A stretch of DNA of 64,000 bases. Origin: an uncultured virus (IMG/VR IMGVR_UViG_3300006217_002156) (lineage: Duplodnaviria; Heunggongvirae; Uroviricota; Caudoviricetes). This document shows, one piece after another, positions 1,482 through 57,080 of the stretch (position 1 is its first letter; every line of letters starts with the position of its first letter). The notes under the pieces are model-generated. The model worked only from the letters and a program-made list of their open reading frames with translations. It was not told the DNA's origin and ran no database searches. Both the position numbers and the translations under genes were made by a program. Location of the stretch: the IMG/VR virus record IMGVR_UViG_3300006217_002156; one strand, given 5' to 3'.

Positions 1482-1702
1482 CAGCCTCCACAAGAGAGGC
1501 CGGCTGGCCGGCCGAAATGTCCGAAGCAAACGAAGTGTCAACAGCAGTTGGATCTTCAGTCAAATCTGATTGTCAGTGTAAAATTTGTGTAAACGCAATA
1601 TGAACTATGTGTGAACATATTGTCGCACCAGATATCAGATTATTACTGTGTATATCAGATTTATCAAATTGCCCCGAAAAAACGAGAAAGAGAGGAAAAG
1701 AC

Positions 1703-1942
1703 ATGTCAATGAAAAGCACACTCCAGGACATGCTCCTGGGCAAGCTCCAGCGGGAGCGTCAAGTGGTGACAGTTTTTATCACCAACGGATTCAGGACAAG
1801 TGGCCGGATTACCGGCTTTGACCAGCACACAATCGTACTGGAGATCAGAGGGGAACAGCAGATTATTTCTAAACACGCCGTTTCCACCATCACCCCCAGC
1901 CAGCCAGTCGACTTGGACAACTTGCGAGAGGAGGCGCGGTAA
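1703..1942 (+). CDS. hfq: Hfq/Sm-like RNA chaperone, phage copy 1
   Basis: LQD..L..L..ER..VTVF.TNG...GRI.GFD..(Sm1) and KHAVSTI.P (Sm2). Confidence 0.9.
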   Translation: MSMKSTLQDMLLGKLQRERQVVTVFITNGFRTSGRITGFDQHTIVLEIRGEQQIISKHAVSTITPSQPVDLDNLREEAR

Positions 1943-3877: not shown

Positions 3878-4141
3878 ATGGGAAAGTATATCCAAGTACC
3901 CAAAGAATTGTTAGACAATAAGGCGGTGTCGTTGAAAGCAAAAGGGCTGTATGCCCTGATTTTGGCACAACCACTTCATTGGGAAAATTCCATTATGGCC
4001 TTAGTGGAGGCATCTGGAGCGAGCAAACACATCATCTCTCTTACCCTCCAGGAATTGGAGGAAGCTGGATATTTAGAGCGCCACCAGCTGACAGAGGACG
4101 GGCGGTTTTGCGGAATGGAATACGAACTGAAAGAACGGTGA
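3878..4141 (+). CDS. Winged-HTH replication-organiser-like protein
   Basis: VSLKAKGLYALI...LQELEEAGYLER. Confidence 0.75.
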   Translation: MGKYIQVPKELLDNKAVSLKAKGLYALILAQPLHWENSIMALVEASGASKHIISLTLQELEEAGYLERHQLTEDGRFCGMEYELKER

Positions 4142-13157: not shown

Positions 13158-14324
13158 ATGCCCATGAACCGCACCCCCGTTTTAAAGCGGGTCCCTAACA
13201 ACTGGGAAGAGCTGGAGAAGCTGCGGGAGATATTCCTGAAGGCGGAGAATGATCTGATTGCTGAGATTGCCCGCCAGCGTTCCCGTGGACTAGTGGACTA
13301 TCATACCGAGGCGGCCCTGTCCCGGGTGCAGGCCACCCTCCAGAAGCTGGTGGATGATGCTTGGAAGTACGTGCCTCGGATGATTGAGAAGCAGTTCTAT
13401 ACCCAGCACCCTGAAGTCCGAAGAATCCCGGAGACCGTGGAGAAGCACCAGGCGGGCTATGCCAACGCTTATGCCCTTACCCTGGAGCAGACCGCCATCG
13501 TGGAGCAGCTGACAATCAATCTCTTAGGTGAACTGATGGAGGCCTCTGCCACGGCCAAGCGCAATACAGAGGATGTGATCCTGGGCCGGTTGGAGAATGA
13601 CGTCTTCCGCCGGACTGGCCTGGCCCGTGTGGCAGCTATGGAGGCTGAGGGTGCCGGCGCCTACCCCTCCGCCCGGAAGATGATTCAGGACCTTCGAGCC
13701 CAAGGCGTCACCTGCTTTGTGGACAAGGCGGGGCGAAAATGGAGTTTATATTCCTACTGTAACATGGTGGCCAGGACCACCAGCAGACAGGCGGAGATAC
13801 TGGCTGTTCTTACCCAGGACCCGAAATGGGACCTGTATCAGGTTACCTCCCACACTGGGTCCTGTGGCCTATGCGCCCCCCTGGAGGGCCGCGTCTACTC
13901 CAAGAGCGGGACCGACCCGGATTTCCCGCCCCTGGCCTCCGCCTTTGGGAAAATCGACCCCGCGGGCCCCAACGACCTGAGCAACACTTATCTCAACATA
14001 CATCCTAATTGCCTCCATCAGCTCATAAGATGGACGCCCATAGGACACACGCCGGAAGAGCTGGAGAAAATCAAGCGTTTTTCCAGCTTCCGGACGAACC
14101 CGCCCAGCCGGGACCCCCGGTCCAGAAAGCAGATTGAAGCTTACCGCAGAAAGGAGGCCGGCCGCAGGCAGTTTTTGAAGGACCTTCGTCAATTCCAGGA
14201 TATGAAGCTGGTCCTGGGCCGCCGGATGACCGGGAACGCGGCGGAGTTTGTAAAGCACAAAATGGCCGGTGACGAAAAGTACCGCCGGTGGGTGGAGCTG
14301 TATCGAGAGGAGCTTGGGAAATGA
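13158..14324 (+). CDS. Phage minor capsid protein (Phage_min_cap2/MuF-like)
   Basis: FVDKAGRKWSL..Y..M..RT; CGLCAPLEGRVY; HPNCLH. Confidence 0.85.
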   Translation: MPMNRTPVLKRVPNNWEELEKLREIFLKAENDLIAEIARQRSRGLVDYHTEAALSRVQATLQKLVDDAWKYVPRMIEKQFYTQHPEVRRIPETVEKHQAGYANAYALTLEQTAIVEQLTINLLGELMEASATAKRNTEDVILGRLENDVFRRTGLARVAAMEAEGAGAYPSARKMIQDLRAQGVTCFVDKAGRKWSLYSYCNMVARTTSRQAEILAVLTQDPKWDLYQVTSHTGSCGLCAPLEGRVYSKSGTDPDFPPLASAFGKIDPAGPNDLSNTYLNIHPNCLHQLIRWTPIGHTPEELEKIKRFSSFRTNPPSRDPRSRKQIEAYRRKEAGRRQFLKDLRQFQDMKLVLGRRMTGNAAEFVKHKMAGDEKYRRWVELYREELGK

Positions 14325-14449
14325 GCGAGACAGTTATCAAAGCCATAGAGGCCATCCTGGCTCGCGGCGACCGGGTAGAACTGATCCCGACTAAAGACGG
14401 TGTACGCGTGATTGGAGTGAAACGCAGGGAGGTAAAGCTGAATGGCTAA
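14321..14449 (+). CDS. 42-aa protein (MSETVIKAIEAILARGDRVEL...), paralog of 23349-23474
   Basis: Manual translation; ATGA overlap with the upstream gene. Confidence 0.65.
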   Translation: MSETVIKAIEAILARGDRVELIPTKDGVRVIGVKRREVKLNG

Positions 14450-14488
14450 AAACCGTACCGGGTCTTTAAAATAAACTTAAAAAACCTC

Positions 14489-14535
14489 TTGACTTTTTAT
14501 CACACCTAAAGTAGAATAAAGGTGTGATTAAAAGT
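14489..14535 (+). promoter_or_regulatory. Sigma70 promoter with inverted-repeat operator
   Basis: TTGACT-17-TAGAAT flanked by atcacacct/aggtgtgat. Confidence 0.7.
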
Positions 14536-14543
14536 GAGGTGAT

Positions 14544-14720
14544 ATGGTGAGCCCACGCACAGGGCGGCCAAAAGTGGAAAATCCAATAAATAAGCGTTTT
14601 AGTGTATGTCTTGATGAAAAAACATTAAAACAGCTTGAAGTCTACTGCCAAACAAACGGAATTACAAAAGGTGAGGCAGTACGAAATGGAATCCATCTGC
14701 TTTTGGAGCAAGAAAAATAG
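14544..14720 (+). CDS. Ribbon-helix-helix (CopG-like) regulator
   Basis: SPRTGRPKVENP...LDE....LE.YC...ITKGEAVRNGI. Confidence 0.75.
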   Translation: MVSPRTGRPKVENPINKRFSVCLDEKTLKQLEVYCQTNGITKGEAVRNGIHLLLEQEK

Positions 14721-14832
14721 AGTGTTGGCGGCCTCACAAACCTCACCAACACCCTATGACACCACACCCGGAGGTCTGGTAAATCTGATTATGCCATACT
14801 TCCTGGTGAAAATCAACAGGAGGTTTTGAAAA

Positions 14833-15045
14833 ATGAATACCGATGCTAGAAAGAGAATTGAGCGGTACATTGCGCAGACACCAATCAGCGAACGTGACGA
14901 GATCAATTACTGTATCCGAGTCAGTGAAATCAGAGCTCTGTATGAGTTGATGGAGCAGGACTGGTATCACGCAATCTGCATGATTTTTTCCTATGGCCGG
15001 GCCAAAGGCTACCGGGCCGCAAAGGCGGAGGCGAAACGTGGGTAA
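14833..15045 (+). CDS. Hypothetical protein (YGRAKGYRAAKAE family)
   Basis: AGGAGG RBS. Confidence 0.65.
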   Translation: MNTDARKRIERYIAQTPISERDEINYCIRVSEIRALYELMEQDWYHAICMIFSYGRAKGYRAAKAEAKRG

Positions 15046-15742
15046 ATTTATTGATTTGACCGGGCAGAGGTTTGGGAGACTGACAGTAATACGGAGGACT
15101 AACGATTATGTAGCGCCTGGTGGTGCTACCGAGCCAATGTGGCTATGTATCTGTGACTGTGGGAATGAAACAACAGTTAAGAGAAGTGCGTTAAAAGGTG
15201 GGCATACTAAAAGTTGTGGGTGTTTTCATTCCGAAAGAATTTCTAAGCTAATGAAAAAGCAAAATCCATTTACGATTAACGGTGAAAAGGTCTATGTCTG
15301 TCTACTCAATTCTAAATCGGAAATGGTAGTTGATAAAGACACTTGGTTCAATACTACTCGCTATTTTTGCTGGTCGTTATCGTCAAATGGATACGCAAAG
15401 GCAAGAATCGGTAATAAAAGTGTTTACTATCATGTTTTTGCTTTTCCTAATTGCCCTGATGGTATGGAGAGAGATCATATAGACGGAAATCGACTTAATA
15501 ATTGTCGGACTAACATACGGTTTGTAACTCGATGCAACAACAATAAAAATAGAAAATTCAAAGAAAATCGAAAGAGCGGTAAAACTGGGGTAAATTGGTC
15601 AAAATCTTCCAATAAATGGAGAGCCATAATAAAAGCAGACGGAAAATACATAAGTCTTGGCTATTTTGTGGACCTCCAAGATGCTATTGATGCCCGTGAA
15701 GCCGCTGAAATCAAGTACTTTGGAGAGTACAGAAGAAAGTAA
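15038..15742 (+). CDS. HNH homing endonuclease with AP2 domain
   Basis: DLTGQRFGRL, C.CDCG, KSCGC, DHIDGNRLNN, W.A.I...LGYF. Confidence 0.9.
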   Translation: MGKFIDLTGQRFGRLTVIRRTNDYVAPGGATEPMWLCICDCGNETTVKRSALKGGHTKSCGCFHSERISKLMKKQNPFTINGEKVYVCLLNSKSEMVVDKDTWFNTTRYFCWSLSSNGYAKARIGNKSVYYHVFAFPNCPDGMERDHIDGNRLNNCRTNIRFVTRCNNNKNRKFKENRKSGKTGVNWSKSSNKWRAIIKADGKYISLGYFVDLQDAIDAREAAEIKYFGEYRRK

Positions 15743-18627: not shown

Positions 18628-18927
18628 ATGTCTGCTTTTGTTGTTTCTTACCGCAATGTTGTTATCCCCCACCCCGATGGCGGGCCCCCTTGCCACCTGA
18701 CCAGGGGGTATGCCGGTCCGGTGCCCGACTGGGTGCCTGGGATCGCCTACTTCAAGGCTCTTGAGGCGGACGGCAAGATTGTCCTGTCCACGTCCAGGAA
18801 GGACAAGGACCTGCGCAGAGCCAAGGCGGCGGCGGATAAAGCCCGCAAGACCGCCGAAAAGGCTGTCCAGGAATCGGCGGCGCCGGTCGGTGATTCTGTG
18901 GAGGAACCAGATGTATCCAGAGAGTAA
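18628..18927 (+). CDS. Small head-associated protein
   Basis: VPDWV....YFKAL..DGKI; follows capsid. Confidence 0.65.
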   Translation: MSAFVVSYRNVVIPHPDGGPPCHLTRGYAGPVPDWVPGIAYFKALEADGKIVLSTSRKDKDLRRAKAAADKARKTAEKAVQESAAPVGDSVEEPDVSRE

Positions 18928-19414
18928 GCCCCAGTTTCTGGGCGTAAAAGCTGCGGCGGCCAATATCGGTCGAGGGACGGGTGAATATACCACCGATATG
19001 TTTCAGGAGGATTTTCCCCAGTTCTTCACTAAGGGTACAGAGGAAGCGCCGCCGGCCTCCCTCCTGACCCAGACCATGCTGGAAGCGTTCATCAGACAGG
19101 CCAACGCGGCTATCCAGCCGGACAAGTGGCTGGATGTCTGGCGGTACGCCTGCGGGCTCTATGTGGCCCATAACGCCGCGCTATACCTGCGCACCTGGTC
19201 CGAGGGCAGTGACAGCCCCGCCCAGGCGGCGGCTTCGGGGGCACTGGTGGGAGTGGTCAGGTCGGCCCAACTGGGGGACAGCTCCGTCAGCTATGACACC
19301 AGCGCCCTTACCCGGGCCACCGAGGATTGGGGCGACCTGAACAGTACCCAGTATGGCCAGCTGCTGGCCTCCAGGGCCAGGCTGGTGGGTATGGGAGGAA
19401 CCTACAGTATATAG
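18911..19414 (+). CDS. DUF4054 head-tail connector
   Basis: F.EDFPQF, GLYVAH, GD.SVSYD, STQYGQ.L. Confidence 0.85.
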   Translation: MYPESKPQFLGVKAAAANIGRGTGEYTTDMFQEDFPQFFTKGTEEAPPASLLTQTMLEAFIRQANAAIQPDKWLDVWRYACGLYVAHNAALYLRTWSEGSDSPAQAAASGALVGVVRSAQLGDSSVSYDTSALTRATEDWGDLNSTQYGQLLASRARLVGMGGTYSI

Positions 19415-19555
19415 AGCTCTTATACATATATATGTAGGAGACTAACGCAGGAAATCTGCTGCTCCCTTCCCTTTTCATCGCACCCGCTTTGGCCTTAGCT
19501 AATCGCATTTATGTGGTGCTCCCAGGGCTTAACTTCCCCCGCTCTGTCGGGGTAG
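19406..19555 (-). ncRNA. TnpB omegaRNA scaffold A1 (cognate, downstream of tnpB)
   Basis: ctaccccgacagagcgggggaagttaagccctgggag...gatgaaaagggaa pattern right after the tnpB stop. Confidence 0.75.
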
Positions 19556-19564
19556 GCAGCTGAT

Positions 19565-20728
19565 TTAGGCCAACTGCAAACCATAGTTTCTGAGGTTAAT
19601 TGCTGCTGCCAAGTCTCGGTTATTGTGTGCTCCACACTGAGGACATGTCCACGACCGGACTGTCAAATCCTTTGTGGCAGGATTCTTTGTTCCACACTGG
19701 GGGCAGAGCTGAGAAGACGGGAAAAATCTGTCGGCCCTGATGAATCGGATATTGTACCAGTTGCTTTTATATTCCAGCTGGCGCAGGAACTCATAAAAGC
19801 CTTGATCTTGAATTGCCTTGGAAAGGTGCTTGTTCTTCATCATCCCGGAGACATTCAAATTCTCCACAGTGATGCTGCAAGGTATTTTCTTTATAATGGC
19901 AGCGCTAGACTGATGGCGATGATTTTGGCGGATGTTGGTCAGGCGGCGTTTGATCCGTAGCACCTGTTTCTCTAACTTTCGGATGTTAGCAGTCTTAATA
20001 AGCCTCTGACCAACTTTGTTCATCTCATACTTTCGTGAAAGCCGCCTCTGGAGCCGCCGCAGCTTCTTTTCCAGACGGCGGACCTCCTGTGTGTGGTTGA
20101 TGTTGCCGAAGGTGGTTCCGTCTGAACATACAGCAAGGTTTTTGATTCCTACATCTATGCCCAGCGGTTCTCCTGTGGGAACCTCCTGAGAATCAGGAAA
20201 CTCATAGACAGCACTGAGCCACCAGTTCAGACCATCATAAGTAACTCGAGCTGAGTAGGCAGGCCGGTCAAGGGGTAACTTGTTCTTTTCGGCTAATTTG
20301 ACCCAGTTGAAGGTGCGGCCCTTTTTCAAAAGAGGATGTAACTTTTGAATCTTGACGTACCAAGGACGAACTTTCACACTTCGTCCTTCCAGGTAGAACG
20401 AGGGCCGGGATTTTGTCCGAGACTTGAAACGAGGGTATTTGGCTTTTCCCTTAAAAAAGTTTTGATAGGCTGTAGTGGCGTCTTTGATAGCTGCAGTAGC
20501 TACTATGCGTGCAGTGTCATTGAGCCAGGAATATTCAGGTTTCCGTCTGAGGGAGGTGAGCTCCTTGCACAAATCGAAGGAGCTCAGAAACTTCTCGCCC
20601 TGTGCATAGTTCTCCTGCTCCCGGCTCAGTGCCCAGTTATAAGCCCACCGGGCCACGCCCGCACATTGGAACAAACGGGTTTGCTGCTTGTTGTTCGGGT
20701 GTAGCATGACCCGAATGGTCTTATACAT
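19565..20728 (-). CDS. tnpB: TnpB RNA-guided endonuclease, RuvC D-E-D intact
   Basis: HTH_OrfB N-terminus, GIDVG, VENLNV, CPQC/CPQC Zn finger, RDLAAAINL. Confidence 0.95.
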   Translation of the reverse strand: MYKTIRVMLHPNNKQQTRLFQCAGVARWAYNWALSREQENYAQGEKFLSSFDLCKELTSLRRKPEYSWLNDTARIVATAAIKDATTAYQNFFKGKAKYPRFKSRTKSRPSFYLEGRSVKVRPWYVKIQKLHPLLKKGRTFNWVKLAEKNKLPLDRPAYSARVTYDGLNWWLSAVYEFPDSQEVPTGEPLGIDVGIKNLAVCSDGTTFGNINHTQEVRRLEKKLRRLQRRLSRKYEMNKVGQRLIKTANIRKLEKQVLRIKRRLTNIRQNHRHQSSAAIIKKIPCSITVENLNVSGMMKNKHLSKAIQDQGFYEFLRQLEYKSNWYNIRFIRADRFFPSSQLCPQCGTKNPATKDLTVRSWTCPQCGAHNNRDLAAAINLRNYGLQLA

Positions 20729-20939
20729 TGTTTGGCCTCCCACATGTAATGCGCCGGTATATAGCAGCCAGTGTATCAGCAACACCCTGGAGCCATTTGT
20801 CGTGTTTGTCCCTGGGTGTAACCGCAGTAAACCGGTTCAAGGTAATCTCTTGAATGAGCCTGAAATCCCCTGTTTCCGTAAGGGCAAGCCTTACAGTGAA
20901 TCCGTAAAACTGGATTGTTCCCTCTTGGAGCAGTTGGAC

Positions 20940-21037
20940 GGCCTGTGGTATCGGCTTCTCAGCCGTTCGCGGTTCGCCGTGCCGCCCAGCGGCAGCACTC
21001 CCCGCGCGTTTAGGTTCGGACCTGCCCGGCCCTACCG
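20940..21037 (-). ncRNA. Orphan IS605-type omegaRNA-like scaffold B1
   Basis: ggtagggccgggcaggtccgaacctaaacgcgcggggag...gaaccgcgaacggctgagaagccg; homologous to 23227-23322. Confidence 0.6.
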
Positions 21038-21060
21038 CACCATTAGTTGTCGCATCAGGG

Positions 21061-21516
21061 TCACGCCGCATTCTGAGCGCCCCCTCTCTCCTGCACCTTG
21101 ACCCGGAGCTTGACCCCCAGGCTATATCCCTGCCCCATGCCTCCATAGATGGCGTACTGGACCACCTGGGTCTCCATACCGGCGTCCATGAGCGGGGCCA
21201 GCATGGCGGCCACCTCACGGGGCAGGTGCCCTACCTGGCCCACCCTGCGGCCCCACAGAAGACCGTACACAGCGATGGCGTTCTTGTCGTAGGGGTTGTC
21301 CGGTTCCCGCTCCAGCTGGTAGCTGGTGTCCTCCAGGACGTTCTGTTCCAGTCTGCGGAGCACCTGCTGACTGTTGCCGAAGGTAACGCCCACAGCCTTA
21401 GTGACGAGACTGCCCACCTTGATGAAGGCCCAGGCCCGCCGCATGGCCTCCCCCCGGTCCTTCAGGACGGGGGAGAGACGGTTGGCGATTGCCATAACTT
21501 GTTTTCTAGTGTTCAT
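21061..21516 (-). CDS. HIRAN-domain protein
   Basis: VGVTF, LEREPDNPYDKNAIAV, VGHLPREVAAMLAPLMDAG. Confidence 0.9.
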   Translation of the reverse strand: MNTRKQVMAIANRLSPVLKDRGEAMRRAWAFIKVGSLVTKAVGVTFGNSQQVLRRLEQNVLEDTSYQLEREPDNPYDKNAIAVYGLLWGRRVGQVGHLPREVAAMLAPLMDAGMETQVVQYAIYGGMGQGYSLGVKLRVKVQERGGAQNAA

Positions 21517-21523
21517 TTTGATA

Positions 21524-21647
21524 CCTCCTATAGAGCTTGAGACTGATTTTTTGCTCAATTCCCCATTCACAGCACCCGCTTTGGCCGAAGCTGCTTGCGT
21601 TTGTACGGCGCTCCAGAGGCTTGACTTCCCCCGCTCTGTCGGGGTAG
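21524..21647 (-). ncRNA. Second A-type omegaRNA scaffold A2 (orphan)
   Basis: 24-nt identity with A1 (21624-21647 = 19532-19555) and colinear similarity through agctctata. Confidence 0.7.
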
Positions 21648-21659
21648 TGTTTGCTGTAA

Positions 21660-21884
21660 TCATAACATTTTCAGGTCTTCCAGGTCGATGGCCCGGTCGG
21701 GCGCGATAGTGGAGACGGCGTGCTTGTAGATGAAATACTGTTCATTCCTGATTTCCACCGCCACAATGGTCTCATCGAAGCCAGTGATCCGCCCCTTCAT
21801 CTGGAAGCCGTTTGTGATGATGACAGTCACCACCTGACGCTCCTGTTGGAGTCTGGAAAGGATGCGGTCCTGTAAATTGTTCAT
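21660..21884 (-). CDS. hfq: Hfq/Sm-like RNA chaperone, phage copy 2
   Basis: NLQDRIL..L..ER.VVTV..TNGFQMKGRITGFD...IYKHAVSTIAP. Confidence 0.92.
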   Translation of the reverse strand: MNNLQDRILSRLQQERQVVTVIITNGFQMKGRITGFDETIVAVEIRNEQYFIYKHAVSTIAPDRAIDLEDLKML

Positions 21885-22075
21885 GCCACACCTCCGAAGT
21901 CCGCAGCCTGGGCACGGTTGTACCGTTTTAAAATCGAAAGCTGGCAGTCGGGGCACAGGACATGCCCGAATAGGTCCGGGTCGGCCTCCCGGCCCCACAG
22001 CTCCGCTTGGCAGCAGTCGCAGTAGGCGTCCGGGATGGTTTGCTGGGGGTCTGTAAGAATCGAAAATTTTAGCAT
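21881..22075 (-). CDS. Small Zn-finger protein
   Basis: CDCC...LCPDC; GAGGAGG RBS; overlaps the hfq start. Confidence 0.65.
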   Translation of the reverse strand: MLKFSILTDPQQTIPDAYCDCCQAELWGREADPDLFGHVLCPDCQLSILKRYNRAQAADFGGVA

Positions 22076-22169
22076 AAAAATGGGCCTCCTCATTTGATTT
22101 TTAGAAAAAACTATGGTAAGATAGACCCAGGAACCAGGGGCCGAAGCCCCTGGCCTGGGAGGGGCCTAG

Positions 22170-22256
22170 TTATCTAGGCCAGTTGGCTACCAAAGCGTCA
22201 TGCAGGCTGTCGTAGGCTTTGCCCTGGTAGTGCCACTTTCCCGAGTGGAACCGCAT
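22170..22256 (-). CDS. 28-aa peptide MRFHSGKWHYQGKAYDSLHDALVANWPR
   Basis: GGGAGGTG RBS; TGGACA-17-TACAAT promoter; homolog at 39151-39240. Confidence 0.7.
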   Translation of the reverse strand: MRFHSGKWHYQGKAYDSLHDALVANWPR

Positions 22257-22475
22257 GTTCTTCACCTCCCTTTTCAGTCTCCGCTGGCCGGGTGTCCTAC
22301 CACCCGGCCCGGCGGGATTGTCAGCGGGTTTCCCCGGCTGATGGTGTTATTGTATCACCTCGAATACATTTTGTCCATTGGCAGAATGTACTAACTTGAA
22401 TACATTTCTTTGTGCAGAATTGTACTTGAGTGAATACGCTCTCTGTGGTACAATTAGATGCGAAAGGAGGACCTA

Positions 22476-22751
22476 ATGCCGATTTCGATGGTAAAGGTGA
22501 AGGAAGTCATGAATCAGCGTGGGTTAAAAAAATTTGACCTAAGAAAGCAAGGATTTAGCCCAAATGTTATCGACAAGGTGCTGTCTGGCCCACTGGACAA
22601 AACCAAAAGGGTCGATACTGAAACCATTGACAGGCTGTGTGAGGTGCTCGAGTGCCAACCAGGCGATATAATGGAGTACGTTCCCGACCCCGACGGCGAA
22701 CAAAAAAGCCCGCCCCCCGGAGAGGGGAGCGGGAGCGGGCTTGACAACTAA
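22476..22751 (+). CDS. HTH_26 (YozG-like) regulator
   Basis: TIDRLCEVLECQPGDIMEYV. Confidence 0.85.
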   Translation: MPISMVKVKEVMNQRGLKKFDLRKQGFSPNVIDKVLSGPLDKTKRVDTETIDRLCEVLECQPGDIMEYVPDPDGEQKSPPPGEGSGSGLDN

Positions 22752-23091
22752 ACACCAAGCGGTTATAATAACGGCAAGAGGACGGTTCCCCTGTGTGCTA
22801 GACAGAGGAGCGGCCAACTAAGAGCAAAGTAATTGGAATTGCCGCTTCTTGCTAGGGACAGGGGGCGGCTATTTCTTTAGGTTATTGCCTAAAGCGATAG
22901 CGGTAAGTACGAGCATAAAGAGTGCTATAACTTCGCCAACGCTCATGGGCTTTCCTCCTTTCAGAGTTAGCCCCGCCCTCTTGCTGGACAATAATATACC
23001 ACAGATCTTGCAAAAGCACAACAAAAAACCCCGCCCCCCGGGGAGGGGAGCGGGAGCGGGCTTGACAACTAAACACCAAGCGGTTATACTA
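22699..23091 (+). repeat. ~72 bp direct repeat (22699-22770; 23020-23091) carrying an antitoxin-RNA promoter
   Basis: ...gggagcgggcTTGACAactaaacaccaagcggtTATAAT/TATACT twice. Confidence 0.85.
22869..22946 (-). CDS. Type I toxin-like hydrophobic peptide MSVGEVIALFMLVLTAIALGNNLKK
   Basis: AAGGAGG RBS; single TM plus lysine tail; convergent antisense promoter. Confidence 0.75.
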   Translation of the reverse strand: MSVGEVIALFMLVLTAIALGNNLKK

Positions 23092-23177
23092 AAGACAACG
23101 AGGGTGCGACCAACAGACGGTCAACCCCCGGGTTTAGTTACAAAGAAGTAACCGCTATGCTGGGGAGCAGAGGGCGG

Positions 23178-23225
23178 TTACTTCTTTTTACCCTGGATGA
23201 ACAGGCTGCAAATGCCAATGATAAC
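23178..23225 (-). pseudogene. 3' remnant of a holin-like type I toxin (VIIGICSLFIQGKKK*)
   Basis: 14/15 aa identical to the C-terminus of 42628-42708; 5' part replaced by scaffold B2. Confidence 0.75.
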
Positions 23226-23226
23226 A

Positions 23227-23322
23227 CGGTAGGGCGGGGTACGCCCGAACCTAACGCGCGGGGAGAGAAGGGCAATGGCCCGCTCGACGAACCGCGAACG
23301 GCTAAAAGCCGATGCCAATGCC
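23227..23322 (+). ncRNA. Orphan IS605-type omegaRNA-like scaffold B2
   Basis: cggtagggcggggtacgcccgaacctaacgcgcggggaga...ctcgacgaaccgcgaacggctaaaagccg. Confidence 0.6.
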
Positions 23323-23348
23323 AGAAAACAACCCTGAAAGGAGCCCAC

Positions 23349-23474
23349 ATGTCCCCCAAAACAATCGCCGCCATCATCGCGGCCCTTGACAAGGGCTTCC
23401 GGGTGGAACTGACAAAAGAAAAAGACGGTGGTATCGCCATACGCACCGTCACCCGGAAGGCCCTGAAAATTTAA
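23349..23474 (+). CDS. 41-aa protein (MSPKTIAAIIAALDKGFRVEL...), paralog of 14321-14449
   Basis: AAAGGAG RBS; aligns with 14321-14449. Confidence 0.7.
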   Translation: MSPKTIAAIIAALDKGFRVELTKEKDGGIAIRTVTRKALKI

Positions 23475-23481
23475 CATTGTA

Positions 23482-23557
23482 CCCACGCCCTAAGCGGTGG
23501 GCGGGAAGAGCTGAGTGGAGCTGACAGGAGAAATCCTGTTGGCTCTATTTTTATTTT
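23482..23557 (+). promoter_or_regulatory. Structured leader/attenuator motif, copy 2
   Basis: Same architecture as 15750-15826 with compensatory changes. Confidence 0.65.
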
Positions 23558-23570
23558 GGAAGGAGGTCAT

Positions 23571-23978
23571 ATGAACTACAATGACTGGTATACCGACTTG
23601 GTGGATGTCTACCGGGTCCAATCGGTTCAAGACGGGGCCCTGACTACGCAGGAGCGGGTCCTGGTGGAGGCGAATATCCCATGCCGGGTCTATCGGAACA
23701 GCGTCCACGGGCCCAGGATGCAGCCCACCGCCGCCAAGGTGGAGCAGGAGGATAAGCTGGCCTGCGCCAATGAGGCGGACATCCGGGGCGGCGATGAGCT
23801 GATAATCCGCCGGGGTGCCCGCCTGGATCAGGCCCGCCAGCGAGTCCGGGCCTTCGCCGGAGAGCCGGCCTATTTCTATGAACCCTTTGGAGCGGTCCTC
23901 CCCGGCCTGGCCCACCAGGAGTTGGCTCTGCTCCAGATGGAGTATCTGAAGGGAGAGGTGGACGATGGCAGCAGGTGA
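23571..23978 (+). CDS. Head-tail adaptor/closure protein
   Basis: Position; IPCRVY, DIR.GDEL.I, HQE. Confidence 0.75.
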   Translation: MNYNDWYTDLVDVYRVQSVQDGALTTQERVLVEANIPCRVYRNSVHGPRMQPTAAKVEQEDKLACANEADIRGGDELIIRRGARLDQARQRVRAFAGEPAYFYEPFGAVLPGLAHQELALLQMEYLKGEVDDGSR

Positions 23979-41273: not shown

Positions 41274-42413
41274 CTAAAGCATAAATGCCTTTTCCACGTG
41301 GTCGATCAATTGCTCAGGTTTGTTATCGACCACGTGGCTATATACATTTAACGTCATCTTTATGTCTGAATGACCTGCCAAATATTGGATTTTTTTGATG
41401 TCGCATCCCGAAGCACATAAACGGCTTATATAACTATGGCGTAGCAGATGGGGTGTGACCTTAAAATCCAGCGTCCGCTCAATCTTGGGGCCACGGGGCT
41501 GCCTCTGGACCTCCTGATCCAGAGCGACCACATTGGAAGCCCGTCGCCGCTCCACGATCTTCATTAGGTTTTTTACGGTTTGCGGCGTAGCGTTTCCGCC
41601 ATTAGCGGAAGGAACCACAAAGACGCTCTTGGTCTGCTTCTTCTCCTCAGCCAGGGCTGCAGCCAAAACAGCCGGCAACGGGATAGTCCGGTGGGCGGCC
41701 TTTGTCTTAAGCGGGGAAGGAAATACACCTTTGGTTCCCTCGAAGCGGACGGCATTGTTTACCGTCAGGTGGGGAGGAGTGGCCGTGAGGTCCACGTCCA
41801 CCCAGCGCAAGCCGCAGATTTCCTCCCGGCGCAGACCGGTGTACAGGCCCAGCATGATAAACAGGTAGGCCCTAGTGCCCTTGGTAGCCTCCAGGAGGGC
41901 TTTGCATTGCTCTGGTGTGAGGGGCGTTTTTTCCTTGCTCCTCTCCCCAGCTGCTTTCAGCTTGCCACAGGGAGACCGGAAAATCAATCCATTCTCAACT
42001 GCACAATCAAAAATAGATTTCAGGGTGATTACCGTTTTGGACTGCATGGAGTTGGACAGGTGAGCCATCTTGGAGAGCACCATCTGGCAGTGCTCCGGCT
42101 TGACCTCCTTCACCAGCATCCCGCCAATATAGGGGCAGATGTGGACGTTGATTGCGTTGACGTAGTCCGATCTCCGGGAGTAGGACCACTTGTCCTTGCG
42201 GTTGTTGTACCACTGGGTGGCCAGCTCAGCTACGGTGGTCTTGTCGTCCAGGACAATACCCATCCGCTGGGCGGTCTCCAGGTCGTACAGTTTCTTCCGC
42301 AACTCCTCCTTGCTCCTGGCACGGACATCCTTCCAGGTTCCGTCCCGGAGCTTGAGACGCTTACGGTAGTAACCCGTCTTGGGGTCGAAGTAAAATTCCG
42401 GCCGCTTTGCCAT
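41274..42413 (-). CDS. int: Tyrosine integrase
   Basis: TGLRREE, HLLRH, LAGHSDI.MTL.VY. Confidence 0.95.
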   Translation of the reverse strand: MAKRPEFYFDPKTGYYRKRLKLRDGTWKDVRARSKEELRKKLYDLETAQRMGIVLDDKTTVAELATQWYNNRKDKWSYSRRSDYVNAINVHICPYIGGMLVKEVKPEHCQMVLSKMAHLSNSMQSKTVITLKSIFDCAVENGLIFRSPCGKLKAAGERSKEKTPLTPEQCKALLEATKGTRAYLFIMLGLYTGLRREEICGLRWVDVDLTATPPHLTVNNAVRFEGTKGVFPSPLKTKAAHRTIPLPAVLAAALAEEKKQTKSVFVVPSANGGNATPQTVKNLMKIVERRRASNVVALDQEVQRQPRGPKIERTLDFKVTPHLLRHSYISRLCASGCDIKKIQYLAGHSDIKMTLNVYSHVVDNKPEQLIDHVEKAFML

Positions 42414-42627
42414 TGCTTTTTCTCCTTTCTCTTCTTTGGCAAGCCGACGTTCTCTATCTCGCGGCCTTTATCGCACCCAGAGGGGCGGTTCTTGTTGCAT
42501 TTTCTTAAATACTGTGTTATCCTGATATCAGGAAAGAATTATCTTTCAGCGCTGCCGAACAGCAGCGGTCAGCCCTCGACGGAGGGCGGCTCCTTGCCCT
42601 CTGATCTTCGGAAAGGGGGGCTGCCTG

Positions 42628-42708
42628 ATGAGTACATCCGAAGTGTTACAGCTTTGTTTGGTTATCATTGGTATTTGCGGCCTGTTTATTCAGGGCAAAA
42701 AGAAGTGA
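42628..42708 (+). CDS. Holin-like type I toxin MSTSEVLQLCLVIIGICGLFIQGKKK
   Basis: Hydrophobic 26-mer plus KKK; convergent antisense promoter. Confidence 0.8.
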   Translation: MSTSEVLQLCLVIIGICGLFIQGKKK

Positions 42709-42998
42709 CCGCCGGCACCCTGACAAGTACGGCGATCACCTTCGCTAATCTTTAAGGGCTGACCGTGTTCCGGCAACGCCCTTTCTATGTTTAGTATAAC
42801 CGCCCGATATTAATTTGTCAAGTACCGCTCCCAGTGCTCCAACACCGGGGGCGGTTTTTATTGCGTATTGTCGATAACTGTGGTATGATGCTGGCAGGAA
42901 AGAATTGTCTTTCAGCGCTGCCAGTAACGGTAGGCGGTTGGCCCTCCTGACAGGGGGCAGCTTCTTGCCCTCTGATCTTCGGAAAGGGGGGCTGCCCA

Positions 42999-43085
42999 AT
43001 GGTCACATACAGTGAACTGTTTCAGTACACACTTGTCATCATCGGCATTATCGGCCTCTTTATTGCGGCCAATAAAAAGAAGTAA
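42999..43085 (+). CDS. Holin-like type I toxin MVTYSELFQYTLVIIGIIGLFIAANKKK
   Basis: Hydrophobic 28-mer plus KKK; same context as 42628-42708. Confidence 0.8.
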   Translation: MVTYSELFQYTLVIIGIIGLFIAANKKK

Positions 43086-43259
43086 CCGCCCCTGGCTCCA
43101 ACCGTGGCGGTTACTTCTCGTAACTAGCTAAGAGGGGCCAACCGCTTACCGGCAGCGCCCTTTCTATGTTTAGTATAACCGCCCGATATTAATTTGTCAA
43201 GTACCGCCCCGCCGCTGGCCGGGGCGGTTTTCGATTCAGTGTCCAAGTTAGACACATTT

Positions 43260-44612: not shown

Positions 44613-44978
44613 TTATTCTTCATCAGGCAGGCCAAAAGCCTTTTTATAACCATCCAGAGAATCAATAAATACTTTGATAGCATCAAGTTCAGGTTCAGAC
44701 ATTTTCTCAATCTCAGCAATCAGTCGCTTTTTGGTGGGAGACAGGTCAGGAGCATCGGCCCTTGAAACATAGCAATCTCCCTCCCCAGTCAGCACCCATT
44801 GGGCAGAGTATCCATATGCTTGTTCAATCAGTAAGGCGAGCGCTTCAGAAATGTTACAGCGCTTGCCTTTTAGCATATTTGATACATAGCTTTCAGTGAC
44901 CTTGATTGCACTGGCTAAATCTTTCTGCTTGATATGCTGCTCATCAAGAATAAGACGAATCCTATCTTTTAGTTCCAT
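44613..44978 (-). CDS. XRE HTH repressor, copy A
   Basis: Near-identical to 46944-47315. Confidence 0.85.
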   Translation of the reverse strand: MELKDRIRLILDEQHIKQKDLASAIKVTESYVSNMLKGKRCNISEALALLIEQAYGYSAQWVLTGEGDCYVSRADAPDLSPTKKRLIAEIEKMSEPELDAIKVFIDSLDGYKKAFGLPDEE

Positions 44979-45943: not shown

Positions 45944-46184
45944 ACAAATGTTGTAAAGGGTGGTTTTGAGAAAAACCGCCTAATACAACAAAGCGGCGGC
46001 TCGTTTGTGGTGATCGATACGGCGCAAGGGGGGTGAGACGGCGGTACACTGGCAGGAAGGCCACAACAGTGTACCGTCATTCGTTTCCCTGCTGGTACAA
46101 GCAGCCGCCTCCGGCGGCTTCAGCCGGGGGCTTGGGGGCTACGGCCACCAACAAGCTCGCGCCGGGTATATACCGGCGCATTAC
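45944..46184 (+). ncRNA. Candidate structured non-coding RNA (six consecutive hairpins; strand uncertain)
   Basis: e.g. gacggcggtacactg...cagtgtaccgtc, gccgcctccggcggc, gcgccgg-gtatata-ccggcgc. Confidence 0.45.
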
Positions 46185-46190
46185 TTGACA

Positions 46191-46943: not shown

Positions 46944-47315
46944 TCACTCCCCCGGTTTATTGTCAGCAGAGAATGCCTTTTTGTAACCGTCCAGGGAATC
47001 AATAAATACTTTGATGGCATCAAGTTCAGGTTCAGACATTTTCTCAATCTCAGCAATCAAGCGCTTTTTGGTAGGAGACAGATCAGGAGCATTAAACTTT
47101 GAGACGTAGCGCTCTCCTTCACCAGTCAACACCCATTGGGCAGAATATCCGAATGCTTGTTCAATCAATAGGGCAAGAGCCTCCGAAATGTTACAGCGCT
47201 TGCCTTTTAGCATATTTGAAACATAGCTTTCAGTCACCTTGATTGCACTGGCTAACTCCTTCTGTTTGATATGTTGCTCATCAAGAATAAGTCGAATTCT
47301 ATCTTTTAGCTCCAT
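46944..47315 (-). CDS. XRE HTH repressor, copy B
   Basis: Near-identical to 44613-44978. Confidence 0.85.
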   Translation of the reverse strand: MELKDRIRLILDEQHIKQKELASAIKVTESYVSNMLKGKRCNISEALALLIEQAFGYSAQWVLTGEGERYVSKFNAPDLSPTKKRLIAEIEKMSEPELDAIKVFIDSLDGYKKAFSADNKPGE

Positions 47316-53809: not shown

Positions 53810-55351
53810 ATGGTGGTGCTGAATTTGCGAAATGACTGCGCAGTTAGGACGGACACCAACTTCAAGCTCGGTATGACAGACAGGCGCTTTTTGGAGCTGG
53901 AGATTACATCCTGGCTGCATTCCCTGGAGCGTAAGCAACAGCTCACCGCTGAGATCTATTATGATGGCCGGCAGGACGTGCTCAAGAGGAGGCGCATGGC
54001 GCTGGACGACGACGGCAAGCTGGTGCAGCTGGAGCATTTGCCCAACAACCGGCTGGTCAATAATCTCTACTCCAAGATGGTGGACCAAAAGACGAACTAC
54101 TCTTTTGGCCGCCCTTTTTCTTTTGATACCGAAAACAAAGAGTACGCCAAGGTTTTGGGAAATGTTTTCGGCCACCGCTTCCGCCGTACGCTCCGCAACA
54201 TCGGAGAGGGCGCTTTTATTGGCGGGAAAAGCTGGCTTTATATCTACTACGACGATAACGGGGAACTGAGCTTCAAGCGATTTCCAGCCCATGAGATCCT
54301 GCCCTTTTGGGCGGATGCGGACCATACTATACTGGATGCTGCCGTCCACGTCTATGCGGTGCTGGAGTATGACGAAGATGAACAGGCAAAAAAGGTGGTC
54401 AAGGTAGAAGTGATGCATGGCGGCGGCGTGGATTGCTTTTTTCGCCGGGATGACGGCACCCTTGAGCCAGACCCGGATGGGAGATCCGGCCCCTATATAG
54501 CCGTGGCGGATTCCTCCGACAGGGTGGTCAGCGGTTATAACTGGGAGCGCATCCCGTTGATTTGCTTTAAAAGCTCTCACCATGAAATTCCCCTGCTGTC
54601 CAGGGTGAAGTGCCTGCAGGACGCCTATAATGACATCCTTTCTAACTTCACCAACCAGATGGAGGAGGATATCCACAGCACCATCCTGGTCATTAAGAAT
54701 TATGACGGAGAGGATCTTGGCACTTTCCGCAAAAATCTGTCAACTTACGGCGCCATTAAGGTCCGTTCCTATGAGGGAGCTGAGGGTGGGGTAGATACCC
54801 TTGAGATCACTGTGAACGCTGAAAACTATAAGGTGCTGCTCTCTCTGCTGAAAGACGCCATTATCGAAAATGCCAGAGGTTACGACGCCAAGGATGACCG
54901 CATGAGCGGCAACCCGAACCAGCTAAACATAAAGACGATGCTGTGCGACATTGATTTGGATGCCAACGGGATCGAAACCGAGTTTCAGGCCAGTATGGAA
55001 GAGCTGCTGTGGTTTGTCAACCGGCATCTGGTCAACACCGGGCAAGGAAATTTTGAAAACGAACCGATTCGCATGATCTTTGACCGGGATACCGTTATCA
55101 ATGAGAGTGAGGTTATCACTAACTGCAAGAACTCCGTGGGCATCCTCTCAGATGAAACCATTGTGAAGATGCACCCCTGGGTGGACGATCCCACAACTGA
55201 GCTTGAGCGGATCAAAAGGGAAAGGGAGGAGGCTGCCGACGACCCCTACCAGGCCGCTTTTATGGCCAACCGGAAGAACAGCGCAGGCGGCTCCGGTGGT
55301 GATCCATTGACCGGCCAGGACGGCGGTGACAGCAATGGCCCGGCAGACTAA
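53810..55351 (+). CDS. SPP1-type portal
   Basis: YY.G.QD, VDQK..Y, NW..IP.I.FK, S.ET....HPWV.D...EL.RI. Confidence 0.9.
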   Translation: MVVLNLRNDCAVRTDTNFKLGMTDRRFLELEITSWLHSLERKQQLTAEIYYDGRQDVLKRRRMALDDDGKLVQLEHLPNNRLVNNLYSKMVDQKTNYSFGRPFSFDTENKEYAKVLGNVFGHRFRRTLRNIGEGAFIGGKSWLYIYYDDNGELSFKRFPAHEILPFWADADHTILDAAVHVYAVLEYDEDEQAKKVVKVEVMHGGGVDCFFRRDDGTLEPDPDGRSGPYIAVADSSDRVVSGYNWERIPLICFKSSHHEIPLLSRVKCLQDAYNDILSNFTNQMEEDIHSTILVIKNYDGEDLGTFRKNLSTYGAIKVRSYEGAEGGVDTLEITVNAENYKVLLSLLKDAIIENARGYDAKDDRMSGNPNQLNIKTMLCDIDLDANGIETEFQASMEELLWFVNRHLVNTGQGNFENEPIRMIFDRDTVINESEVITNCKNSVGILSDETIVKMHPWVDDPTTELERIKREREEAADDPYQAAFMANRKNSAGGSGGDPLTGQDGGDSNGPAD

Positions 55352-57080
55352 TGCCGCCTATTGGGCCCAGCGCATGAAAAATATGGAGGATGCGCTGCTG
55401 AACCAGTCCTATGGATATGTTGAGAATATGGAGCGGCAATTTGCCGCCGCCCAAGTCGAGATCGAGCGTCAAATCGCCGCATGGTATCAGCGCTTTGCAG
55501 ACGCCAACGGCATCACCTTTGCGGACGCCAAGCGGCTGCTCACTAAAGGGGAGCTGGAGGAGTTTCACTGGAGCGTGGAGGAGTACATTGCCCACGGTCA
55601 GCAAAACGCCCTTAACGGGGCCTGGATGCGCCAGCTTGAGAATGTCAGCGCCAGGATGCAAGTCACACGGCTGGAGGCGTTAAAGCTCCAGATCCAGCAG
55701 CAGGCGGAGGTGCTGTACGCCAACCAGCTCGACTTTGTGGACGCCGCCGCCCGGGAAATGTACTTAGGAAGCTACTACCACACCGTCTTTGAGATCCAGC
55801 GGGGCCTTGGGGTAGGCTGGACTATGCAGGCTATCAATGAGGAGACCATTAAAAAAGTGCTCTCCCGTCCCTGGACTATCGACGCTCAGACCTTTCGGGA
55901 CCGATGTTGGACCAACAAGCAGGCTCTGGTCAACAGTGTCAATACTCAGCTGACGCAAATGATCATCCGGGGAGAGGCCCCGGATCGGGCCATTGCCGCC
56001 GTGGCCAAGCAGTTCAACGTGTCCAAGGGGAAAGCGGGCCGCCTCATCATGACGGAAAGTGCCTATTTTGCCGGCGCGGGGCAAAAGGACTGTTATGGTG
56101 AGCTGGGGGTGGAGCGGTTCAAGGTCGTGGCCACCTTCGACAAGGGCACCTGCGACATATGCGGGGCGATGGACGGCCAGGTTTTCAAAATGTCGGAGTA
56201 TCAGGTGGGCCTCACCGCTCCGCCGTTCCATCCCTGGTGCCGGTGCTGCACTGCCCCCTATTTTGAGGATATAGAAGGCCTGGGGGAACGTTATGCCCGT
56301 GACGCTGTGACAGGTGAGCACTTCAAGGTGCCAAACAATATGACCTATGAACAGTGGAGAGTAAAACAAAATGAGCTCCACGGTGACGGAACAGTTGAAA
56401 AAATGCGGATGATGAGCTATAATGAGAGCGCTGATAAAGCTCAATATAGCCGCTATCAGTCAGTTTTGGGCGAGTTGTCCCCGGAGAGTTTTGCCGATTT
56501 TCAGCGGCTCAAGTACAATGATCCAGATGGCTGGGCCACGGCCAAGGCTCAGTATAGAATCCTCAATAGCTACAAAGTGGATGCGGGCGAGCTGTCCCGC
56601 ACAGATATTTTGCAGTTGGATAATGTGGTCATTACAGAGAAACGATCCAATTTTGCCAGCGCTTTCAAATACAGCGGCAACATTGCTGGTGCTTATCTGG
56701 ATGGTGACAGTGCTGCCATGTATTATGCGCACAGCAAGATATCCGAAAGTCCCAAGGGCTATAAGGGCAGCGCTGAGCTTGTCTTATTGAAAGACGAGCG
56801 CAGATTTTCCTATATTGATGTTTTGACAGATACCGGTGCAATGCGGAGCGGCACATGGCACGATACAGAGGCTAAGCTGTTTGAGTATTTTGCGGATTTG
56901 TACGAAATAACCCCCTTTACGTCTATCACCATGCTCTCGGAGAGAGGCATGTGTGATAGTTGTAAGGGTGTTATGGAGCAGTTCCAAGCGCTCCACCCGG
57001 ATGTAAAAATCAATGTTGTTTCCAACAAAAAGGTGGAGAGCGATGTCTGGAAGCACAGGAGGCGGAAAAGAAAAAAATGA
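55335..57080 (+). CDS. MuF minor capsid protein with C-terminal deaminase toxin domain
   Basis: TC..C..MDG, PPFHPWCRC; then HDTEAK...SERGMCDSCK.V..QF...HP. Confidence 0.85.
   Translation: MARQTNAAYWAQRMKNMEDALLNQSYGYVENMERQFAAAQVEIERQIAAWYQRFADANGITFADAKRLLTKGELEEFHWSVEEYIAHGQQNALNGAWMRQLENVSARMQVTRLEALKLQIQQQAEVLYANQLDFVDAAAREMYLGSYYHTVFEIQRGLGVGWTMQAINEETIKKVLSRPWTIDAQTFRDRCWTNKQALVNSVNTQLTQMIIRGEAPDRAIAAVAKQFNVSKGKAGRLIMTESAYFAGAGQKDCYGELGVERFKVVATFDKGTCDICGAMDGQVFKMSEYQVGLTAPPFHPWCRCCTAPYFEDIEGLGERYARDAVTGEHFKVPNNMTYEQWRVKQNELHGDGTVEKMRMMSYNESADKAQYSRYQSVLGELSPESFADFQRLKYNDPDGWATAKAQYRILNSYKVDAGELSRTDILQLDNVVITEKRSNFASAFKYSGNIAGAYLDGDSAAMYYAHSKISESPKGYKGSAELVLLKDERRFSYIDVLTDTGAMRSGTWHDTEAKLFEYFADLYEITPFTSITMLSERGMCDSCKGVMEQFQALHPDVKINVVSNKKVESDVWKHRRRKRKK

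What the first reader, a model, noticed from the sequence alone, without database searches (positions are those of the whole stretch)
19406..23322. One TnpB, four omegaRNA-like scaffolds of two structural classes
Seen: A1 (19406-19555) and A2 (21524-21647) share a perfect 24-mer, then cacccgctttggcc and the terminal agctctata, with diverged internal stems. B1 (20940-21037, minus) and B2 (23227-23322, plus) share ggtagggc..ccgaacct.aacgcgcggggag...gaaccgcgaacggct..aagccgat.cca with compensatory stems. The B copies resemble IS605 right-end RNAs but lack the usual subterminal hairpin/TCAA end. Inference: a dispersed multi-guide set, decoy RNAs that titrate host or competitor TnpBs, or protein-binding regulatory switches.
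Basis: partly seen in the sequence, partly recalled or inferred. Interest (0 to 1): 0.85.

Follow-up and report, generated by a model that had tools for sequence, protein, structure and literature searches.

The report
Phage island with leftover TnpB guides
The four look-alike stretches are real guide-RNA scaffolds of two known transposon types inside a 4-kb cargo island of a gut prophage: one serves the island's own DNA-cutting enzyme and points at the island-free version of the phage, while the other three are enzyme-less leftovers whose guides simply copy their neighbouring DNA.

Summary
A1 and A2 are RAGATH-18/IS607 reRNAs; B1 and B2 are IS605 omegaRNAs whose right-end hairpin is shortened, not missing. 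All four lie in a 4,160-bp island (19411-23570) inserted just before the start codon of a virion gene that directly follows its neighbour in 79 of 79 related phages. The island has no transposase, carries hfq, HIRAN, a regulator and small toxin-antitoxin-like units, and copies a late-operon leader to restart expression. Its intact TnpB belongs to a distinct IS607 subclade lacking the G-reading lysine; A1 ends exactly at the junction, implying an AT-ended TAM (TTCAT) and a guide against the empty allele. A sister island in an unrelated prophage ends instead in an IS605 TnpB with a B-type RNA. A2, B1 and B2 are scaffold-only insertions without tnpB or left end; their guides equal their own flanks, and no foreign target was found. 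Best reading: a transposase-free, RNA-guided homing island with PATE-like leftovers; only A2 fits the resident enzyme. Multi-guide, decoy and switch ideas are unsupported. Expression and cleavage are untested.

The parts
19411..23570 (.). 4,160-bp accessory island inserted immediately before the ATG of a head-tail connector gene
   Evidence: Junctions read; flanking genes adjacent (gap at most 22 nt) in 79 of 79 relatives holding both, 1 of 80 loci lacked the second gene; GC 0.53 against 0.61 and 0.60 in the flanks
18911..19414 (+). Virion structural gene (DUF4054, phrog_302); its last codons supply the A1 guide, the island supplies its stop codon
19391..19410 (-). Predicted 20-nt guide of A1 (matches the empty allele behind TTCAT)
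   Evidence: Inference from pseudoknot register and empty sites
19411..19555 (-). A1: cis reRNA scaffold (RAGATH-18 core 19467-19527), ends in AT rather than GG
19565..20728 (-). tnpB, 387 aa, IS607/RAGATH-18 lineage, RuvC D192/E289/D372 intact
20721..21071 (-). ORF-X, small gene of unknown function (72-75 aa in homologs), here 116 aa because B1 sits in frame inside it
20945..21037 (-). B1: orphan IS605-type omegaRNA scaffold, short right-end hairpin, one mismatch in the pseudoknot
21061..21513 (-). HIRAN-domain gene; its ribosome-binding site and start are the A2 guide
21530..21647 (-). A2: orphan reRNA scaffold (RAGATH-18 core 21559-21619), all helices and pseudoknot kept
21660..21884 (-). 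hfq
   Evidence: Pfam PF17209
21881..22093 (-). Small zinc-finger-like ORF shared with the sister island
22349..22377 (-). Promoter-like site that would drive the leftward operon (hfq, A2, HIRAN, B1/ORF-X, tnpB, A1)
   Evidence: Consensus match 10 of 12; function not shown
22476..22751 (+). Cro/C1-type HTH regulator, divergent from the operon
   Evidence: PF13443
22699..23226 (.). Two type I toxin-antitoxin-like units (strong promoters at 22741 and 23062, small hydrophobic ORFs on the minus strand); the second toxin-like ORF has lost its 5' part at B2
   Evidence: the toxin-antitoxin label is recalled from architecture and comes from no call
23227..23318 (+). B2: orphan IS605-type omegaRNA scaffold, 92 nt, pseudoknot kept
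23349..23570 (+). Restart module: small ORF (phrog_29211), gut-2-like motif (23481-23528, below gathering score) and ribosome-binding site, homologous to the late-operon leader of related phages
23571..23978 (+). Head-tail adaptor gene (phrog_615); its start codon and next codon give the inferred TAM TTCAT on the minus strand

Best explanation
The region is a phage accessory island that uses a transposase-free TnpB as an RNA-guided homing endonuclease. The leftward operon ends in tnpB and A1; TnpB matures A1, whose 3' guide is the end of the upstream virion gene. In a co-infecting sister phage without the island that sequence follows TTCAT (start of the next gene) and is cut; repair from the island-bearing genome copies the whole island, or the rival is destroyed. 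The island survives inside an essential operon because it brings a copied late leader and ribosome-binding site. A2, B1 and B2 are footprints of later TnpB elements that entered the island and lost left end and tnpB, leaving the bare scaffold with its own flank as guide (PATE-like, but without a left end, so immobile by transposase). A2 can probably be loaded by the resident TnpB and would protect or home only its own site; B1 and B2 need an IS605 TnpB from the host or a sister island, and B1 is decaying. Shown: families, boundaries, empty alleles, intact RuvC, absence of tnpA. Inferred: TAM, expression, loading, cleavage, homing, order of events.
For: Island boundaries and 79 of 79 empty alleles. 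Pseudoknot register of 23 canonical reRNAs places the A1 end at 19411, the same base as the junction. The last two scaffold bases (AT) equal the last two bases before the empty-site guide (TTCAT in 70 of 79), the rule reported for IS607 TnpB (PMC10690162, passages). The lysine that reads G(-1) in ISFba1 (PMC11061315 section 11; register) is K in 16 of 18 canonical IS607 TnpBs but 0 of 14 in this subclade. Subclade of 14 proteins, 66-83% identical, SH-aLRT 100, RuvC aspartates invariant. No hit to 7 serine or 4 Y1 transposases and no tnpB remnant elsewhere in the window. Sister island in G002 with Znf, hfq, HIRAN and a terminal IS605 tnpB plus B-type RNA, also placed before an ATG with its own ribosome-binding site; empty allele in G430. 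B1 is a 35-codon in-frame insert in ORF-X relative to 3 homologs. Contigs from one mouse-gut study lack B2 at its slot and carry a B copy elsewhere in the island.
Against: No RNA or activity data. The A1 guide has at least 4 mismatches of 20, mostly in the seed, to all 79 sampled empty alleles, so no natural target is in hand; the sampled phages are only 58-77% identical in protein. Only two islands were seen as DNA; further members rest on matching contig lengths of protein records, which is indirect. HIRAN searches found no third island: no further hit among 401, 112, 12 and 25 genomes, and one unrelated-context hit among 165. In G002 the RNA end is truncated at the junction with a weak pseudoknot, so that module may be inactive. 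Helix conservation in A2 is from two sequences and could predate the loss of its tnpB. How a scaffold-only insertion forms is not shown.
Confidence: 0.55

Rival explanations
1. Plain decay: tnpB-A1 is a stranded IS607 remnant, the island is kept for its cargo genes, and A2, B1, B2 are inert scars of recent insertions.
For: Orphan scaffolds are common in this RNA family: 13 of 102 pattern hits had no tnpB upstream, several with left-end remnants. B1 has a pseudoknot mismatch. No matching target among 79 empty alleles. Microhomologies could explain the deletions.
Against: A diverged, full-length, RuvC-intact subclade with a changed TAM-contact helix; three orphans all cut back to the scaffold with no tnpB remnant; 23 of 23 helix pairs kept in both A copies despite 22 differences.
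Confidence: 0.25
2. Regulatory switches: TnpB binds A2 (and an IS605 TnpB binds B1) in the operon mRNA, processes it and hides the HIRAN ribosome-binding site, giving feedback control of cargo and tnpB.
For: A2 and B1 lie upstream of tnpB in one predicted operon; the A2 guide is the HIRAN ribosome-binding site. TnpB processes its own mRNA 5' of the scaffold (PMC10278001, abstract and section 13).
Against: ORF-X homologs lack B1; the G002 island has a gene, not an RNA, between hfq and HIRAN; positions of B differ between islands. A conserved switch should stay in place.
Confidence: 0.08
3. A dispersed multi-guide set that aims one nuclease at several foreign targets.
For: Four structured scaffolds within 4 kb, three co-oriented with tnpB; A2 is cognate.
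Against: Guides equal native flanks: B2's flank is present in relatives without B2, B1's is ORF-X coding sequence. No convincing target in 340 sequences, 3.17 Mb; 1 of 165 genomes with a 2-mismatch hit for B2 against 2 control hits; 17 of 112 for A2, all 2-mismatch, and the 8 inspected are ribosome-binding sites of unrelated genes. B RNAs belong to another TnpB clade.
Confidence: 0.07
4. Decoy RNAs that soak up host or competitor TnpB.
For: B1 and B2 match the IS605 family of the probable host group and have no cognate enzyme in the window.
Against: B2 lies just behind a predicted terminator hairpin of the antitoxin-like RNA and has no promoter match of its own; no known threat from these TnpBs to this phage; B presence varies between islands.
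Confidence: 0.05

Closest known systems
IS607 TnpB with RAGATH-18-derived reRNA (ISFba1, PDB 8IAZ; PMC11061315)
   Same: RAGATH-18 core above gathering score, reRNA wholly downstream of a 387-aa TnpB, 5' hairpin-3' end pseudoknot, intact RuvC, best solved-structure match of the subclade profile.
   Different: No serine-recombinase tnpA, no left end; scaffold ends in AT not GG; G-reading lysine lost; inferred AT-ended TAM instead of AGGAG/GAGGG; second, orphan copy.
IS200/IS605 omegaRNA and PATE-like non-autonomous elements (PMC10055086)
   Same: B1/B2 match the full omegaRNA model; protein-less omegaRNAs that need TnpB in trans are described there.
   Different: Right-end hairpin cut to 5 bp, 92-93 nt in all, ends CCAA/CCAC, no left-end hairpin, so not a complete PATE.
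Free-standing phage homing endonucleases and HEG islands (Seg/Mob type; reviewed in PMC13565253)
   Same: Nuclease between conserved phage genes, able in principle to cut the rival allele and co-convert neighbouring DNA.
   Different: The nuclease is RNA-guided, the island has sharp boundaries, about 3 kb of cargo and its own operon restart, and the nuclease class differs between sister islands.
TldR (nuclease-dead TnpB repressors) and TranC (as summarised in PMC13565253 section 17)
   Same: Prophage-borne, transposase-free TnpB derivative with extra guide-like RNAs.
   Different: RuvC intact in both islands; no repeat-spacer array; guides match own flanks, not promoters of other genes.

Membership tests
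RAGATH-18 reRNA (A1, A2) | Rfam RF03064 score at or above gathering cut-off | tested here: met
   53.7 and 47.9 bits against 44.9
RAGATH-18 reRNA (A1, A2) | Pseudoknot between the 5' hairpin loop and the 3' end | tested here: met
   5 of 5 pairs in both copies, with a sequence unlike all 23 canonical copies
IS607 transposon | TnpB of the IS607/RAGATH-18 clade with intact RuvC | tested here: met
   Nested among 18 IS607 TnpBs in a quick tree of 45 rows; D192, E289, D372
IS607 transposon | Serine-recombinase tnpA and left end | tested here: not met
   No hit with 7 tnpA queries; the far end is a phage late leader
IS607 transposon | GG core dinucleotide and G-rich TAM | tested here: not met
   End AT, empty site TTCAT in 70 of 79; the TAM itself was not measured
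IS605 omegaRNA (B1, B2) | Full-length match to a family covariance model | tested here: met
   56.6 and 60.3 bits, model positions 1-117
IS605 omegaRNA (B1, B2) | Subterminal hairpin within 10 nt of the end and pseudoknot | tested here: inconclusive
   Hairpin present but 5 bp; pseudoknot 4 pairs with one G-U in B2, one mismatch in B1
PATE | Both left-end and right-end hairpins without genes | tested here: not met
   No left-end match in the island with 5 queries, apart from one 16-nt hit inside tnpB
TldR | Inactivated RuvC | tested here: not met
   Catalytic residues intact in the window and in G002
RNA-guided homing endonuclease | Guide plus TAM re-formed at the empty allele and broken at the filled allele | tested here: inconclusive
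   Geometry fits, but sampled alleles carry 4 or more mismatches
RNA-guided homing endonuclease | Cleavage and biased inheritance | not testable with these tools
   Needs experiments

The most novel reading that the evidence does not exclude
A family of transposase-free, RNA-guided homing islands in gut prophages: a cargo operon (Znf, hfq, HIRAN) that lodges before the start codon of an essential virion gene, restarts the operon, reads that start codon as its TAM through an IS607-lineage TnpB that has switched to an AT-ended TAM, exchanges IS607- and IS605-type TnpB modules, and carries bare scaffolds as nested minimal homing units that borrow TnpB in trans.
Probability: 0.3. Interest if true: 0.75.

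Novelty: new variant of a known kind. Interest (0 to 1): 0.5.

Why it matters
If true, TnpB would drive multi-gene islands through phage populations with no transposase at all, an RNA-guided counterpart of free-standing homing endonucleases, and start codons of essential genes would be natural, conserved TAMs. Two side results are directly testable: a compact IS607-lineage TnpB subclade with a predicted AT-ended TAM (reported ones are G-rich), and a natural 92-nt omegaRNA. The orphan scaffolds alone are ordinary.

Tried and rejected
No whole genome is held for the window, so host IS605 copies could not be checked. Exact patterns for B and A found nothing in viral contigs; 6 metagenome hits were chance; 0 of 401 genomes had the B 3' pattern. 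No match for A or B in plasmids; the phage collection gave only short, mostly tnpB-internal matches and one distant HIRAN. Viral searches gave no member of the TnpB subclade (best 55%) and no close HIRAN. No RNA holder listed; expression untested. I first read the joint as a clean empty site for B2; record lengths in 2 runs instead leave up to 139 letters between the pieces, which fits the intact 5' part of the toxin-like gene, so B2 replaced sequence. The idea that B guides start inside the short hairpin and share a target was dropped: the model and the third copy both end at 23318, and no target was found. ORF-X is not tnpA; the plus frame over it has no homolog; the Atlas gave one low hit only. 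TGAT lies 11, 16 and 4 nt before A2, B1 and B2 (background 7% per site), but this was noticed after the fact and does not rebuild a clean empty site for B2, so it is kept as a lead only. Single-sequence folding energies were not significant for A1, A2 or B1 (z 0.1 to -1.3; B2 -2.2). The tree is the quick version; the careful search did not finish, and 2 of 20 canonical IS607 loci were left out for lack of a full ORF.
Full report
Setting. The window holds two tandem prophages (terminase, portal, capsid, sheath and baseplate genes; integrase at 41274-42413). No genome is held for it; the closest relatives of its parts come from Oscillospiraceae-type gut bacteria, which is an inference about the host.

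Observation. The shared 24-mer, 14-mer and terminal motif are present as described and occur only twice in 64 kb. A1 and A2 are the only Rfam hits of the window, both RAGATH-18, the RNA shown to guide IS607 TnpB (PMC11061315; I read parts 1-2 of the text, passages and sections 10-11; no supplements, whose TAM tables may bear on the TAM claim). A pattern from the 5' part of B gave 48 genome and 54 viral loci; of these 102, 82 lie directly behind a tnpB 3' end, 7 are too near a contig end and 13 are orphans. A model from 26 canonical copies finds B1 and B2 over its full length. B differs from the canon by loss of the outer right-end stem; the 5-bp core and a TCAA/TCAC-like end remain. A subterminal hairpin is the one feature reported as general for TnpB omegaRNAs (PMC10278001, abstract and section 13).

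Structure. With helices taken from the Rfam alignment and by analogy, 23 of 23 pairs hold in both A copies; 5 of 22 differences in the first 98 columns fall in helices and all keep pairing, one on both sides; a further 5-bp stem is kept with two exchanged pairs. The loop-to-end pseudoknot has a sequence found in none of 23 canonical reRNAs and is intact in both. With two sequences this is not statistical covariation. In B2 the pseudoknot has 4 pairs (one G-U), in B1 one mismatch; crosswise both are perfect, a sign of drift from one ancestor.

The larger unit. In 79 of 79 related phage loci that hold both flanking virion genes they are adjacent. In the window 4,160 bp (19411-23570) lie exactly before the ATG of the second gene. 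The island has a leftward operon (Znf-like ORF, hfq, A2, HIRAN, ORF-X with B1, tnpB, A1), a divergent HTH gene, two toxin-antitoxin-like units (label recalled, not from a call), B2, and a copy of the late-operon leader of related phages. No transposase or second tnpB remnant is in the window.

The enzyme. TnpB (387 aa) has intact RuvC residues and 13 relatives at 66-83% identity, then a drop to 55%. These 14 form a supported long-branch clade inside the IS607 group (quick tree). The pseudoknot register puts the A1 end at 19411, the junction base. The scaffold thus ends in AT, and the empty allele reads TTCAT before the guide in 70 of 79 loci. For an IS607 TnpB the last two scaffold bases were reported to equal the last two TAM bases (PMC10690162, passages). 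The lysine that reads G(-1) in ISFba1 is K in 16 of 18 canonical proteins and in 0 of 14 of the subclade. An AT-ended TAM is therefore inferred from three lines, none measured. Against: the guide mismatches every sampled empty allele at 4 or more of 20 positions, so only close sister phages, not in hand, could be targets.

A sister island. One of the 102 loci (L196, genome G002) has a B-type RNA directly behind an intact IS605 tnpB, at the end of an operon with homologous Znf, hfq and HIRAN genes and no tnpA, in an unrelated prophage. A relative (G430) shows the empty allele; this island too sits before an ATG and brings a ribosome-binding site. Its RNA end is truncated, so its activity is doubtful. 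Protein records suggest more members: HIRAN and ORF-X homologs share contig lengths 2726 and 1930, an ORF-X and a subclade TnpB 5688, a G002-type HIRAN and a subclade TnpB 50511; this is indirect. Genome searches found no third island.

The orphans. B1 adds 35 in-frame codons to ORF-X compared with 3 homologs, 38 compared with a fourth. Removing A2 leaves a normal hfq stop, ribosome-binding site and HIRAN start. B2 replaces the start and promoter region of a small toxin-like gene; contigs of one mouse-gut study resume at 23319 without B2 and carry a B copy matching 23228-23318 elsewhere in the island. So each orphan is a late, scaffold-only addition whose guide is its native flank. Target searches were negative. 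Protein-less omegaRNAs used in trans are described for PATE-like elements (PMC10055086, passages), and the family here has such copies, with and, by eye, without left ends.

Mechanism. Most likely TnpB-A1 cuts island-free sister phages and the island is copied by repair, as free-standing homing endonucleases do (PMC13565253, passages and section 17). A2 fits the same enzyme and would guard only its own site; B1 and B2 need an IS605 TnpB. Plain decay is the main rival; switches, foreign-target guides and decoys have no support here.

Literature and earlier notes. Six full-text searches (listings only) showed no paper on a transposase-free TnpB cargo island in phages or an AT-TAM RAGATH-18 TnpB; the library lacks most subscription papers. 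Earlier scan notes report other phage orphans as PATE-like leftovers and one transposase-less TnpB element; they are unchecked leads.

Verdict. Real, mostly explained by known RNA families; the orphans are ordinary, the island and its re-specified TnpB are a new variant worth testing. Interest 0.5.

Noticed in passing
window 20743-20769 and 46161-46187: A 21-nt near-perfect match (inverted) between the end of ORF-X just before tnpB and the region after a HicB-like gene; no such pair in 100 shuffles. Unexplained.
   Followed up: partly
window 1607-1942 and 21660-21884: The first prophage encodes two Hfq proteins, one in the early region and one in the island.
   Followed up: no
window 42482-43210: Two more tandem toxin-antitoxin-like units beside the integrase, homologous to those in the island.
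   Followed up: partly
window 55326-57077: Minor head protein (Mu F-like) of the second prophage fused to a toxin-deaminase domain.
   Followed up: no
window 14288-15742: A second copy of the small phrog_29211 ORF and an HNH endonuclease gene upstream of the scaffold gene, a second inserted block in the same late region.
   Followed up: no
window 44635-44934 and 46972-47271: Duplicated 300-nt HTH repressor module, 88% identical.
   Followed up: no
L232:1479-1595 and L246 (match at 4001-4030): Identical IS605 omegaRNAs in two phage contigs with different flanks; one has a left end and no tnpB, the other shows neither by eye.
   Followed up: partly
L204:1343-1500: An omegaRNA directly followed by what looks like the start of a tnpB gene, the reverse of the usual order.
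   Followed up: no
L185, L191, L208, L225, L265 (pattern match positions): Other IS605-type omegaRNAs that lack the usual right-end hairpin, several behind intact tnpB genes.
   Followed up: no
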